From the NCBI GenBank assembly GCA_934154445.1, contig CAKPGC010000001.1:93414-157413 (forward strand): a stretch of DNA of 64,000 nt, in the 5' to 3' direction. A program made the translations under genes and the position numbers. Origin of the DNA: an uncultured Clostridia bacterium (lineage in GTDB: Bacteria > Bacillota > Clostridia > TANB77 > CAG-508). Below, piece after piece: positions 18,009 to 18,316 of this stretch. Numbering within the stretch: position 1 is the stretch's first letter; every line of letters begins with the position of its first letter. The notes under the pieces are model-generated. The model had not been told where the DNA came from. It was given only the letters and a program-made list of their open reading frames with translations, and ran no database searches.

Positions 18009-18316
18009 TGGTGGGCAGGGATGGATTCGAACCATCGTACTCAAATGAGAACAGATTTCTTACTACTATAGTTTTCACTACCAAATTACTTTGTTTGTAG
18101 TCTGGACTTTCTCTTTATCTTTTTCAAGATACCAGGTATAAAGTCTCTACACTCGGAATTTCTTCCTAGCTCGGGATTGCCATCAGCTTTCACTGTTAAG
18201 GTTTCCCCGAATTAGCCTAGTTTTCATCTTACCATTACTGATAAGAGCTGCAAGTTTAGGTTTTGTTTTAACCAAAGACCACAGTCTGCCGCCTTTAGCC
18301 ACTCGGCCACCTACCC
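18009..18316 (-). tRNA. tRNA-Tyr (anticodon GUA) interrupted by a 222-nt group I intron at 18059..18280; exons 18281..18316 and 18009..18058
   Basis: Joined exons (GGGTAGGTGGCCGAGTGGCTAAAGGCGGCAGACTGT + AAATCTGTTCTCATTTGAGTACGATGGTTCGAATCCATCCCTGCCCACCA) give an 86-nt class II tRNA with anticodon loop CUGUAAA, close to bacterial tRNA-Tyr. The 5' exon ends in U and the intron ends in G. Confidence 0.8.
18059..18280 (-). ncRNA. group I (IC3-like) self-splicing intron in the tRNA-Tyr anticodon loop
   Basis: Intron carries TAATTCGGGGAAACCTTAAC...GATGGCAATCCCGAGC (P4-P6 core as in trnL and Azoarcus tRNA introns) and GTCCAGACTACAAAC (P7-like CAGACUA). No internal ORF. Confidence 0.7.

What the first reader, a model, noticed from the sequence alone, without database searches (positions are those of the whole stretch)
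18009..18316. tRNA-Tyr(GUA) gene split by a 222-nt group I intron in the anticodon loop
The 5' exon (GGGTAGGTGGCCGAGTGGCTAAAGGCGGCAGACTGT) and 3' exon (AAATCTGT...CCCTGCCCACCA) join into a textbook class II tRNA-Tyr with anticodon loop CUGUAAA. The 222 nt between them, at 18059..18280 on the minus strand, start after a U and end in G. They contain AAUUCGGGGAAACC...GGCAAUCCCGAGC (the P4-P6 core shared by the cyanobacterial/plastid trnL and Azoarcus tRNA-Ile IC3 introns) and CAGACUACA (P7). The insertion appears to lie between anticodon nucleotides 35 and 36. Group I introns in tRNA genes are known mainly from cyanobacteria, plastids and some proteobacteria. I do not recall any described in tRNA-Tyr or in a Clostridium-like Firmicute. 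If this is the only tRNA-Tyr copy, splicing would be essential.
Basis: partly seen in the sequence, partly recalled or inferred. Interest (0 to 1): 0.85.

Follow-up and report, generated by a model that had tools for sequence, protein, structure and literature searches.

The report
Self-splicing intron in Clostridial tRNA-Tyr gene

Summary
On the minus strand, a 36-nt 5' exon (18316-18281), a 222-nt insert (18280-18059) and a 50-nt 3' exon (18058-18009) join into an 86-nt tRNA-Tyr(GUA), split between anticodon positions 35 and 36.

The insert is a genuine IC3-type group I intron. Rfam Intron_gpI matches end to end (40.4 bits, E 5.5e-9), below its gathering score of 50. The same split gene occurs in 27 species-level gut Clostridia genomes. 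A full P1-P9 structure pairs in 99.4% of cells, with 13 compensatory pairs, and the exons covary too.

The novelty claim is outdated. Surveys from 2020 and 2026 list many more split tRNA classes, the 35/36 site, a Patescibacterial tRNA-Tyr(GUA) case and one 35/36 case in Clostridia.

New here: 87 nt downstream lies a free-standing PD-(D/E)XK endonuclease gene (17921-17538). It belongs to the family of I-Ssp6803I, the homing enzyme encoded inside the cyanobacterial tRNA-fMet intron. Across species it is intact, decayed or absent. An orthologous locus has neither intron nor endonuclease. The endonuclease was never found beside an uninterrupted copy of this tRNA. Phage relatives sit in tRNA arrays, often beside tRNA-Tyr.

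The arrangement fits collaborative homing, but that is untested. Whether splicing is essential cannot be judged from 64 kb.

The parts
18356..18384 (-). Promoter of the tRNA gene: TTGACA, 17-nt spacer, TATAAT, ending about 40 nt upstream of tRNA position 1
   Evidence: 12 of 12 matches to the sigma-70 consensus. This is a consensus match only; transcription was not shown.
18281..18316 (-). tRNA-Tyr 5' exon (36 nt): acceptor 5' strand, D arm, anticodon stem 5' strand and loop C32 U33 G34 U35
   Evidence: Nearly invariant in 27 genomes, and the D-stem and acceptor changes are compensated.
18059..18280 (-). Group I intron, 222 nt, no ORF, IC3-like. Contains P1, P1 extension, P2, P3-P8, P9.0, P9 and P9a; the terminal G is at 18059
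   Evidence: Rfam RF00028 at 40.4 bits, E 5.5e-9, model positions 1-253. Structure counts: 99.4% paired, 13 compensatory pairs. RNAalifold recovers all helices except the pseudoknot.
18248..18284 (-). P1 with its extension hairpin. Exon CUGU plus intron GG (18284-18279) pair with the internal guide UUGCAG (18253-18248), giving U35.G at the 5' splice site. The extension hairpin lies between the two strands
   Evidence: All six P1 pairs are kept in 27 of 27 genomes, and pair +1 changes G.U to A-U in three.
18227..18246 (-). P2 hairpin (8 bp) with a GNRA loop (GUAA or GUGA)
   Evidence: four of eight pairs show compensatory changes.
18131..18221 (-). Catalytic core. P3 (18221-18216 with 18136-18131) encloses P4-P5-P5a-P6 (18211-18152), J6/7 and the 5' strand of P7 (18147-18142, GAGACU with a bulged A)
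   Evidence: P3 has 2 and P6 has 3 compensatory pairs. P4, P5, P5a and P7 are invariant. P4 was partly fixed by the search pattern.
18104..18130 (-). P8 hairpin (18130-18117, GAAA loop), J8/7 (AAAGAGAA) and the 3' strand of P7 (AGUCC, 18108-18104)
   Evidence: Invariant in 27 genomes.
18059..18101 (-). Three-way junction at the 3' end. P9.0 (ACUAC with GUAGU) encloses the P9 hairpin and the P9a hairpin (GAAA loop), followed by AAG with the terminal G at 18059
   Evidence: P9 and P9a each have 2 compensatory pairs, and P9.0 has one U-A to U.G change.
18009..18058 (-). tRNA-Tyr 3' exon (50 nt): A36 A37 A38, anticodon stem 3' strand, long variable arm, T arm, acceptor 3' strand and encoded CCA
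   Evidence: the variable arm and T stem covary (T-stem pair A-U in 14 genomes, U-A in 13).
17980..18007 (-). AT-rich hairpin followed by a T run (AAAAACAAGGAAACUUGUUUUUAUUUUU); likely terminator of the tRNA gene
   Evidence: Read from the sequence. The scanner did not call it because the stem has fewer than 3 G-C pairs. A similar hairpin occupies the same position in L587, and a different terminator-like hairpin does so in L122 and L137. Inferred.
17538..17921 (-). Free-standing PD-(D/E)XK endonuclease gene (127 aa), with GGAG 6 nt upstream of the ATG. Member of the I-Ssp6803I homing-endonuclease family
   Evidence: Pfam PF11645 at 62 bits, E 8e-17, cut-off 26.1. Profile against PDB 2OST gives E 3.8e-7 over residues 6-118, and 2OST is I-Ssp6803I. 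NCBI names a homolog 'group I intron-associated PD-(D/E)XK endonuclease'.

Best explanation
This is a working tRNA-Tyr(GUA) gene interrupted between anticodon nucleotides 35 and 36 by a 222-nt, ORF-less group I intron of the IC3 tRNA-intron family.

How the intron works. The gene is transcribed from its own consensus promoter. The intron folds so that the last exon bases CUGU pair with an internal guide sequence (P1, with U35.G at the splice site). A free guanosine bound in P7 attacks after U35. The terminal G then takes the same site, and the freed 3'-OH of U35 attacks after that G. This joins the exons into an 86-nt tRNA. The sequence and structure are shown here. The chemistry is inferred from the established group I mechanism.

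The second layer. The 127-aa gene 87 nt downstream is a free-standing homing endonuclease of the I-Ssp6803I family. It most likely cuts intron-less tRNA-Tyr genes in or near the anticodon arm. The intron splits that site and so protects the host's own gene. Repair of a cut allele from an intron-plus-endonuclease donor would copy both elements across, which is collaborative or trans homing. Family membership and the linkage pattern are shown here. The cleavage site and the mobility are inferred.

Confidence is about 0.93 that this is a genuine, functional group I intron in a functional tRNA gene. It is about 0.5 that the endonuclease targets the intron insertion site. The figure given below is for the intron layer alone; the statement taken as a whole, including the homing layer, would rate lower (roughly 0.5).
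For: Intron:
- Full-length Rfam Intron_gpI match.
- The spliced product is a canonical tRNA-Tyr.
- The identical insertion site occurs in 27 species-representative Clostridia genomes, with intron lengths of 217-233 nt.
- The hand-derived P1-P9a structure is paired in 99.4% of 1807 cells, against 31-45% when the partners are slid. It has 13 compensatory pairs against 0-3 in the slid controls.
- RNAalifold recovers the same helices independently, with 20 compensatory pairs including the tRNA arms.
- The junctions J3/4, J4/5, J6/7 and J8/7, helix P7, the U.G pair and the terminal G are invariant.
- The closest non-Tyr relatives are tRNA-Leu(UAA) introns.
- The promoter is a perfect consensus.

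Endonuclease:
- PF11645 membership, homology to 2OST, which is I-Ssp6803I, and invariant P-L-N-D...D-Y-D-L...Q-x-K residues.
- It lies directly downstream of the split tRNA in every locus where both are visible, although the upstream context differs: ylmC in one clade, tRNA-Met or dinB in others.
- It behaves as a discrete cassette that is present, decayed or absent.
- The orthologous locus L204 lacks both the intron and the endonuclease, and the homology breaks exactly at the exon 1 end.
- 0 of 120 intron-less loci with this anticodon arm carry it.
- The exons of intron+/endonuclease+ genomes and of genomes lacking both are 100% identical, so exon polymorphism cannot be the source of self-protection.
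- All 44 phage homologs lie in tRNA arrays, and 21 are beside tRNA-Tyr.
- In phage locus L166 the ORF sits between two halves of a tRNA-Tyr broken within the anticodon loop.

Literature: I-Ssp6803I recognises a 23-bp pseudo-palindromic target (PMC3384342). [quoted passage not shown] Collaborative homing is described for F-CphI and psbA (PMC6083498, PMC3984707).
Against: - The Rfam score is below the gathering threshold (40.4 against 50). Williams 2020 notes that the seed alignment has no bacterial sequences.
- No RNA evidence for splicing is available.
- P4, P5 and P7 never vary, so they carry no covariation evidence, and P4 was fixed by my search pattern.
- For the homing layer, the intron/endonuclease association is only marginal: 17/0 against 9/3, one-sided Fisher p = 0.06, with ascertainment bias and related genomes.
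- The phage control for immunity through a variant anticodon arm is underpowered: 0 of 86 against 2 of 77, p = 0.22.
- Phage homologs often sit beside uninterrupted tRNA-Tyr, Ser or Leu genes, so an intron is not needed for coexistence in general.
- The target could be the empty intergenic site rather than the anticodon loop.
- The structure model of the protein was too poor to use (pLDDT 51).
Confidence: 0.85

Rival explanations
1. The intron and the endonuclease are two independent selfish elements that only happen to be neighbours. The endonuclease performs ordinary intron-less homing: it cuts its own empty insertion site downstream of the tRNA terminator, or some other part of the tRNA region. 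The intron at most hitch-hikes by co-conversion because it lies about 140 bp away.
For: - Nine intron-bearing species lack the endonuclease, so the intron persists without it.
- Phage homologs coexist with uninterrupted tRNA genes of several types.
- The endonuclease is a clean cassette between the terminator and the next promoter.
- SegB, an unrelated free-standing endonuclease, also lives in phage tRNA arrays and cuts inside tRNA genes without any intron involved (PMC13096335).
- The association statistics are weak.
Against: - The endonuclease belongs to the family whose characterised member, I-Ssp6803I, is reported to be specific for a tRNA anticodon region (cited title in PMC3984707; the link to I-Ssp6803I is from memory).
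- It was never seen beside an uninterrupted tRNA-Tyr of this sequence, although intron-less orthologs with identical exons exist.
- In L166 the ORF is inserted within a tRNA-Tyr anticodon loop.
- Linkage to tRNA-Tyr holds while both the upstream and the further-downstream genes change.
Confidence: 0.3
2. The split gene is a dead or dying tRNA gene. The insert is a degenerate ribozyme that no longer splices, and tyrosine decoding relies on another tRNA-Tyr copy elsewhere in the genome.
For: Rfam scores it below the gathering threshold. Only 64 kb of the genome is visible, so a second copy cannot be excluded. Intron-less versions of the same tRNA exist in related genomes.
Against: - Exons and intron are both maintained across 27 species, with compensatory changes in the acceptor, D, variable and T arms and in P2, P3, P6, P9 and P9a.
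- All catalytic junctions, the U.G pair and the terminal G are invariant.
- The promoter is a perfect consensus.
- The intron-less L204 sits at the orthologous locus of a different species rather than as a second copy, and L244 and L221 have the tRNA-Met then tRNA-Tyr layout of most intron-bearing species.
Confidence: 0.04
3. The 127-aa protein is not a homing endonuclease. It is a host-domesticated factor, for example a splicing helper for the intron or a defence nuclease, kept next to the tRNA for functional reasons.
For: PD-(D/E)XK folds serve many roles. There is a weak second Pfam hit to the Cap4 nuclease domain (E 0.0017, below its cut-off). Homing endonucleases are known to evolve maturase functions (PMC3984707).
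Against: - It is dispensable: cleanly absent in nine intron-bearing species, and truncated, stopped or mutated in the conserved YDL motif in others. This is the decay pattern of a selfish gene.
- Its relatives are scattered in phage tRNA arrays.
- The Pfam match to the homing family is far stronger, 62 against 19 bits.
Confidence: 0.08

Closest known systems
IC3 group I introns of bacterial tRNA genes: tRNA-Leu(UAA) of cyanobacteria and plastids, tRNA-Ile(CAU) of Azoarcus, tRNA-fMet, tRNA-Arg(CCU)
   Same: Small (about 200-250 nt), ORF-less and located in the anticodon loop after a U. P1 is built from the anticodon-loop bases. The P3-P8 core is the same, including AAUUCGGxGAAACC...GGCAAxxCCGAGC and GUGUAGAGACU, and there are GNRA loops on P2 and P9. 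A profile of the Tyr introns scores tRNA-Leu(UAA) introns best, at 93 bits.
   Different: The host tRNA is Tyr(GUA) and the insertion point is 35/36. Nakagawa et al. 2026 give 33/34 for fMet, 34/35 for Leu and 36/37 for Arg; 36/37 for Ile is my recollection. The hosts are gut Clostridia. The similarity to the Azoarcus sequence itself rests on my memory of that sequence, not on a tool result.
Group I introns at position 35/36 of Patescibacterial tRNA-Asn, tRNA-Asp and one tRNA-Tyr(GUA) (Nakagawa et al. 2026, PMC13011429); tFind split-tRNA classes (Williams 2020)
   Same: The insertion site is the same and, in one Patescibacterial genome, so are the tRNA and anticodon. Self-splicing at 35/36 has been shown in vitro for Asn and Asp. 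These introns are missed by default annotation tools, as this one is.
   Different: 25 of the 28 reported 35/36 introns are subgroup IA, and none of the Patescibacterial ones is IC. This one is IC3-like. The phylum differs. The single Bacillota_A 35/36 case in that survey could be this family, but the table that lists it was not readable.
I-Ssp6803I, the PD-(D/E)XK homing endonuclease of the Synechocystis tRNA-fMet intron (PDB 2OST; Pfam PF11645)
   Same: Same protein family, similar size (127 against 151 aa), a shared YDL[IV]...VQVK motif and association with a group I intron in a tRNA anticodon loop.
   Different: I-Ssp6803I is encoded inside its intron. This gene is free-standing, 87 nt beyond the tRNA 3' end. 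A 2012 review describes close homologs as generally cyanobacterial (PMC3384342). Here the family has at least 1841 clusters in gut Clostridia and phages. The target is unknown.
Collaborative or trans homing: F-CphI with the ORF-less psbA intron of cyanophage S-PM2, and T4 MobE with the nrdB intron
   Same: An ORF-less self-splicing intron paired with a free-standing endonuclease gene immediately adjacent to the interrupted gene. Intron-less alleles exist in relatives. The endonuclease is absent from intron-less alleles.
   Different: The known cases are phage protein-coding genes with Endo VII-like or HNH enzymes. This would be a bacterial chromosomal tRNA gene with a PD-(D/E)XK enzyme. Cleavage at the intron insertion site has not been shown here.
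SegB and other free-standing homing endonucleases in phage tRNA arrays (PMC13096335)
   Same: The phage relatives of this endonuclease all lie within tRNA gene arrays, usually 20-110 nt from a tRNA gene. SegB is likewise enriched next to tRNAs and cuts inside tRNA genes.
   Different: SegB is, from memory, a GIY-YIG enzyme and is reported to have no tRNA isotype preference. These PD-(D/E)XK homologs are beside tRNA-Tyr in 21 of 44 loci and otherwise mostly beside Ser or Leu.

Membership tests
Group I intron (Rfam RF00028 Intron_gpI) | Score at or above the curated Rfam gathering threshold | tested here: not met
   40.4 bits against a gathering score of 50. The match is full length (model 1-253) with E 5.5e-9 in the 451-nt scan, and it is absent from the whole-window gathering scan. 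Williams 2020 reports that the seed has no bacterial members and used 18-20 bits.
Group I intron | P1 helix formed by the 5' exon end and an internal guide sequence, with a U.G wobble at the splice site | tested here: met
   C33-G, U34-A, G35-C, U36.G | G.U, G.U. All six pairs are kept in 27 of 27 genomes, and RNAalifold predicts them independently.
Group I intron | Terminal guanosine (omega G) at the 3' end of the intron | tested here: met
   G at 18059. The last four intron bases UAAG are invariant in 27 genomes.
Group I intron | Conserved core of paired regions P3-P8, with the P3/P7 pseudoknot and a bulged nucleotide in P7 (guanosine-binding site) | tested here: met
   All helices can be drawn and are 99-100% paired. 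P3 and P6 covary. P4, P5, P7 and P8 are invariant, so they are consistent with the structure but carry no covariation evidence. The P7 pseudoknot was drawn by hand and cannot be predicted by RNAalifold.
Group I intron | Guanosine-dependent self-splicing that yields ligated exons | not testable with these tools
   Needs in vitro transcription with GTP and Mg2+, or RNA-seq across the junction.
Subgroup IC3 tRNA introns | Sequence and structure closest to the tRNA-Leu, Ile, fMet and Arg IC3 introns rather than to IA introns | tested here: inconclusive
   The nhmmer profile of the Tyr introns hits tRNA-Leu(UAA) introns best (93 bits), then Ala, Lys, Phe and Arg(UCU) hosts. The core motif used to fetch them was designed from this intron plus my recollection of the Azoarcus sequence. 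Subgroup-specific covariance models were not available.
Bacterial tRNA-Tyr | Cloverleaf with GUA anticodon, long (class II) variable arm, 7-nt anticodon loop CUGUAAA and encoded CCA | tested here: met
   ARAGORN calls the 86-nt joined exons tRNA-Tyr(gta). The arms covary across species.
I-Ssp6803I-type PD-(D/E)XK homing endonucleases (Pfam PF11645 PDDEXK_5) | Sequence membership above the curated Pfam threshold and homology to the solved structure | tested here: met
   62 bits against a cut-off of 26.1. Profile against 2OST: E 3.8e-7 over residues 6-118 of 127. 2OST is I-Ssp6803I.
I-Ssp6803I-type PD-(D/E)XK homing endonucleases | Conserved acidic and lysine active-site residues | tested here: met
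   P31-L-N-D34, D37-Y-D39-L and Q52-x-K54 are invariant in 11 bacterial and phage homologs and align with YDLV...VQVK of 2OST. Which of these residues are catalytic is taken from general knowledge of the fold.
I-Ssp6803I-type PD-(D/E)XK homing endonucleases | Encoded within the group I intron it mobilises | tested here: not met
   The ORF starts 87 nt after the tRNA 3' end, beyond a terminator-like hairpin. The 222-nt intron has no room for an ORF of this size.
I-Ssp6803I-type PD-(D/E)XK homing endonucleases | Site-specific cleavage of the intron-less allele | not testable with these tools
   The evidence is indirect only: the state 'endonuclease present, tRNA of this sequence uninterrupted' was never seen, and there is the L166 footprint.
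Collaborative (trans) homing system | ORF-less self-splicing intron plus a free-standing endonuclease gene adjacent to the interrupted gene | tested here: met
Collaborative (trans) homing system | Intron-less alleles exist in related genomes as potential recipients | tested here: met
   L204 is an orthologous locus with 79-90% identical flanks. L244 and L221 carry exons 100% and 97.6% identical to this lineage's spliced product.
Collaborative (trans) homing system | [quoted passage not shown] | not testable with these tools
   Needs a cleavage assay on the L204-type and window-type alleles.

The most novel reading that the evidence does not exclude
This locus may be the first bacterial chromosomal example of collaborative homing in a tRNA gene. 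In that reading, a free-standing I-Ssp6803I-family endonuclease cuts the pseudo-palindromic anticodon arm of intron-less tRNA-Tyr genes. An ORF-less IC3 intron inserted next to the dyad centre (35/36) acts as the immunity element, and the pair spreads together among gut Clostridia. The endonuclease lineage would be shared with phages, where it invades tRNA arrays and sometimes inserts directly into anticodon loops (L166 Tyr, L336 Asn, L342 Gln). That would be a natural intermediate on the proposed route by which free-standing endonucleases and ORF-less introns merge into mobile introns such as the Synechocystis tRNA-fMet intron.
Probability: 0.45. Interest if true: 0.65.

Novelty: new member of a known kind. 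Interest (0 to 1): 0.5.

Why it matters
Practical value. Default tRNA finders and the Rfam gathering threshold both miss this gene. Genomes of this abundant gut Clostridia lineage would therefore appear to lack tRNA-Tyr. One endonuclease variant alone is indexed in about 800-900 blocks of the assembly collection.

Biological value. The locus extends the IC3 tRNA-intron family to a new host tRNA and insertion site in Firmicutes. It also pairs an ORF-less intron with a free-standing member of the only homing-endonuclease family known to be specific for a tRNA anticodon region. Orthologous loci exist in all three expected states: both elements, intron only, and neither. That makes the origin of mobile introns by the collaborative-homing route directly testable with two cloned alleles and one small protein.

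It is not a new kind of element. Whether splicing is essential here remains open.

Tried and rejected
- Default ARAGORN and the Rfam gathering scan found nothing at the locus. Only ARAGORN's intron mode and the permissive Rfam scan did.
- A broad IC3 core pattern saturated the viral scan at 120 rows, so it was useless for tracing this family. I switched to an exon-anchored pattern.
- Eight of the 35 genome hits were false for Tyr. One was a cyanobacterial tRNA-Arg(CCU). In five loci, including Patescibacteria, ACTGT falls inside an HNH 'CxNCH' motif. L150 (Peribacteria) and L131 are also not tRNA-Tyr.
- I considered pairing intron base +1 with the C nine bases into the guide region, because G-to-A and C-to-U changes co-occur in three genomes. 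I rejected it because it does not fit a continuous helix and L146 breaks the pattern.
- My first reading of L166, a complete second tRNA-Tyr inside the split one and a break exactly at 35/36, was too strong. ARAGORN and Rfam do not call the inner element, and CTGTA is present at both junctions.
- The AlphaFold model of the endonuclease was poor (pLDDT 51, shallow alignment), so I ran no fold search.
- The control for immunity through a variant anticodon arm was underpowered (0 of 86 against 2 of 77), and an earlier attempt yielded a single control gene.
- The metagenome pattern for the intron-less allele was less lineage-specific than I expected.
- Table S5 of Nakagawa 2026 and Table 1 of Williams 2020 could not be read (one cut off in storage, the other an image). 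I could not check whether a Clostridial Tyr 35/36 intron is already listed.
- L587 looked like an endonuclease without a tRNA. It turned out to be foreign DNA inserted at the tRNA 3' end.
- The 'group I introns' of 22-49 nt reported in cyanobacterial tRNAs (PMC5733544) are not comparable.
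Full report
**1. The observation**

The joined exons give an 86-nt RNA that ARAGORN calls tRNA-Tyr(gta). It has a 7-bp acceptor stem, a long variable arm, a TTCGAAT T-loop and an encoded CCA.

ARAGORN in intron mode calls the genomic sequence tRNA-Tyr i(37,222). In default mode it finds nothing there, and the whole-window Rfam gathering scan reports only three ordinary tRNAs elsewhere.

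The splice point cannot be shifted without changing the product, so the intron lies between U35 and A36. CAGACUACA is not P7. It is the end of the P7 3' strand (AGUCC) followed by the 5' strand of P9.0.

**2. Is the insert a group I intron?**

A permissive Rfam scan of 17950-18400 gives Intron_gpI over model positions 1-253 at 40.4 bits, E 5.5e-9. That is below the gathering score of 50. Williams (bioRxiv 10.1101/2020.01.27.920355) points out that the Rfam seed contains no bacterial introns, and he worked at 18-20 bits.

I therefore looked for relatives. An exon-anchored pattern (ACTGT, a gap, the P4 5' strand, a gap, then the P5'/P4 3' strand) found 35 loci in the collection of one genome per species. 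Of these, 26 are tRNA-Tyr(gta) genes with an intron of 217-233 nt at the same position, and a 27th is cut off by a contig end. All come from uncultured Clostridia or Clostridium gut MAGs with 25-33% G+C.

In the alignment of 27 pre-tRNAs I drew a complete group I structure:
- P1, with U35.G at the splice site
- a P1 extension hairpin
- P2, with a GNRA loop
- P3, P4, P5, P5a and P6
- the P7 pseudoknot, with a bulged A
- P8
- a 3' three-way junction of P9.0, P9 and P9a
- then AAG, ending in the terminal G

Counted on the alignment, 99.4% of 1807 cells form standard pairs, against 31-45% when the 3' partners are slid by 1-3 columns. Thirteen pairs show changes on both sides (P2 four, P3 two, P6 three, P9 two, P9a two), against 0-3 in the slid controls. 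RNAalifold, with no input from me, recovers every helix except the pseudoknot, plus the four tRNA arms. Of its 88 pairs, 20 have compensatory changes.

The single-stranded junctions, P4, P5, P7, the U.G pair and the terminal G are invariant. P4 was partly fixed by my search pattern.

A sequence profile of the Tyr introns scores tRNA-Leu(UAA) introns highest among other tRNA introns (93 bits), followed by introns in Ala, Lys, Phe and Arg(UCU) tRNAs. This places it in the IC3 tRNA-intron family.

**3. Is the gene functional?**

The exons change in a compensated way between species. The T stem reads GATGG/CCATC, GAAGG/CCTTC or GGTGG/CCACC. Three different variable arms occur, and there are acceptor and D-stem changes.

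A perfect TTGACA-17-TATAAT promoter ends about 40 nt upstream. An AT-rich hairpin with a T run follows the CCA; I read this from the sequence, and the scanner did not call it.

In most species the split gene follows a tRNA-Met(cat). In the window's clade it follows ylmC in the ftsA-ftsZ-spoIIGA-sigE-sigG cluster.

This is what a working gene under selection looks like, not a pseudogene. Splicing itself is inferred, not shown.

**4. Is splicing essential?**

The window holds no other tRNA with a GTA anticodon, but 64 kb is not a genome.

A metagenome scan for the intron-less anticodon arm returned 120 loci. Three of them are low-GC contigs whose uninterrupted tRNA-Tyr is 100%, 100% and 97.6% identical to this lineage's spliced product.

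One of these, L204, is the orthologous locus of a relative of a very abundant intron-bearing species. The upstream DAP-dehydrogenase and dinB genes are 90% and 79% identical, and the homology runs exactly to the last base of exon 1. L204 is thus an ortholog in another species rather than a second copy, and L244 and L221 have the tRNA-Met then tRNA-Tyr layout of most intron-bearing species. The intron is polymorphic within the lineage. The question of essentiality stays open.

**5.

The next ORF (17921-17538, 127 aa, with GGAG 6 nt upstream of the ATG) starts 87 nt after the tRNA.

Family assignment:
- It matches Pfam PF11645 (PDDEXK_5) at 62 bits, against a cut-off of 26.1.
- Its only relative in the PDB is 2OST (E 0.05 alone; E 3.8e-7 over residues 6-118 with a profile).
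- 2OST is I-Ssp6803I. This is the PD-(D/E)XK homing endonuclease that, as I recall, is encoded inside the Synechocystis tRNA-fMet group I intron. It recognises a 23-bp pseudo-palindromic target (PMC3384342). [quoted passage not shown]
- NCBI already names a homolog 'group I intron-associated PD-(D/E)XK endonuclease [Clostridia bacterium]'.

State across the species loci:
- Intact 57-87 nt after the tRNA in eight genomes.
- Farther away (475 nt) in one.
- Carrying D-to-N in the invariant YDL motif in one.
- Stopped or truncated in two.
- Cleanly absent in nine that have enough flank.

L122 and L137 share the tRNA terminator and the next gene's promoter. They differ only by the roughly 400-nt RBS-plus-ORF cassette.

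Every further endonuclease cluster I sampled has the split tRNA-Tyr upstream wherever the flank allows. The one apparent exception, L587, has foreign DNA inserted at the tRNA 3' end.

**6. What the endonuclease probably does**

The observed states are intron+/endonuclease+, intron+/endonuclease- and intron-/endonuclease-. The state with the endonuclease beside an uninterrupted tRNA of this sequence was not seen. None of the 120 intron-less loci has it, and the cluster-level table is 17/0 against 9/3. That gives one-sided Fisher p = 0.06, with ascertainment and relatedness caveats.

The exons of genomes with both elements and of genomes with neither are identical. So if the enzyme cuts within the tRNA gene, only the intron can protect its host.

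Homologs in large phage contigs (43-57% identical to the window protein in the first scan, more distant ones in the second) all lie in tRNA arrays. In 21 of 44 loci they are beside tRNA-Tyr, and otherwise mostly beside Ser or Leu.

In L166 the ORF lies between two halves of a tRNA-Tyr that join into a proper cloverleaf. The break is within the anticodon loop, with CTGTA on both sides. L336 (Asn) and L342 (Gln) look similar.

All 19 uninterrupted phage tRNA-Tyr genes beside the ORF have anticodon arms that differ from the AGACTGTAAATCT kept by the Clostridia. The control, however, is uninformative: 0 of 86 against 2 of 77, p = 0.22.

The arrangement matches collaborative homing as defined for F-CphI and the psbA intron. 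[quoted passage not shown]

I rate this reading at about 0.5. The main rival, at about 0.3, is that the enzyme homes to its own empty intergenic site and the intron is merely a neighbour.

**7. Comparison with what is known, and novelty**

Bacterial tRNA group I introns are classical, and recent surveys have widened them:
- Williams 2020 raised the number of classes from 4 to 21.
- Nakagawa et al. 2026 found 333 introns in 4934 complete genomes.
- They showed in vitro splicing at 35/36 for Asn and Asp.
- They list a Tyr(GUA) 35/36 intron in one Patescibacterium.
- They count one 35/36 insertion in Bacillota_A.

So neither the host tRNA nor the site is new, and a Clostridial case may already sit in a table I could not read.

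As far as I could check, these points are new:
- the size and conservation of this Clostridial family;
- its IC3 character at a site dominated by IA introns;
- the free-standing I-Ssp6803I-family endonuclease linked to it.

Verdict: a real and well-supported feature. It is a new member of a known kind, with a moderately interesting and testable mobility hypothesis attached.

Noticed in passing
window 18743-19559 (-) and 19616-20329 (-): sigG is split into two overlapping ORFs (121 and 172 aa). The C-terminus of sigE looks frameshifted, with only a weak region-4 hit. The same split sigG (107 + 162 aa) appears in four independent metagenome assemblies of this species (L156-L159). It is therefore real rather than a sequencing error: either a pseudogene in a non-sporulating lineage or a programmed frameshift.
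   Followed up: partly
window 16440-17408 (-): A second, shorter FtsZ-like gene (322 aa, Tubulin + FtsZ_C) followed by a conserved 227-230-aa membrane-anchored ORF. It lies a few kb downstream of the canonical ftsZ (21405-22526). The pair stays downstream of the tRNA-Tyr/endonuclease unit in several species even when the upstream genes differ.
   Followed up: no
L160-L165 (about 3400-4800): In the abundant P0064 species, the segment right after the endonuclease gene varies between strains. It holds either a 387-aa ORF or a 168-aa ORF plus an anti-Pycsar Apyc1-like metallo-beta-lactamase gene. This suggests an insertion hot spot next to the tRNA. In L587, unrelated DNA is inserted exactly at the tRNA 3' end.
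   Followed up: partly
L166 2341-2932 (= L300 1841-2432); L336 1942-2457; L342 1931-2432: In three phage contigs the PD-(D/E)XK endonuclease ORF lies between two halves of a tRNA gene (Tyr, Asn, Gln). The acceptor stems are complementary (checked by eye for all three), and ARAGORN calls each as a split tRNA. The insert (406-507 nt) is almost entirely ORF, with no room for a ribozyme and no Rfam intron hit for L166 and L336, the two that were scanned. In L166 the stop codon is formed by the anticodon-loop CTGTAA, and a divergent tRNA-Tyr-like element sits upstream of the ORF. These are either invasion scars or an undescribed kind of split tRNA.
   Followed up: partly
L170-L178 (about 3270-4200): Phage tRNA arrays next to the endonuclease contain several tRNA-like genes with 30-55-nt inserts in the anticodon loop. 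Rfam's tRNA model scores them 46-53 bits across the insert. The inserts are too short for group I introns, and their nature is unknown.
   Followed up: no
L023 12957-13868 and L061 3526-5058: Viral contigs carry two or three group I intron-containing tRNA genes side by side: Arg(tct), Leu(taa) and a tca-anticodon tRNA. Overall, IC3-like introns on viral contigs sit in Leu, Met, Arg, Lys, Gln, Ala and Phe tRNAs. A 2014 review stated that all phage introns then known were in protein-coding genes (PMC3984707).
   Followed up: partly
L135, L136, L139, L140, L143 (about 60 nt into each extracted stretch): In these genomes, several of them Patescibacteria, an HNH-type ORF (CxNCH motif) runs up to the start of an IC3-like intron core, which is followed by a tRNA 3' half. 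These look like endonuclease-carrying tRNA introns.
   Followed up: no
L131 1094-1780: An IC3-like intron is flanked on both sides by the repeat GTGCATAACTG and followed by a T arm plus CCA. ARAGORN calls it Met(cat) i(34,611). It may be an intron in a tRNA-like or tmRNA-like gene.
   Followed up: no
L122, L137, L142, L145 (tRNA-Tyr exons): In this higher-GC subclade the acceptor stem has a C4-U69 mismatch (GGGCGGG/CCCTCCC), where the other genomes have U4.G69.
   Followed up: no
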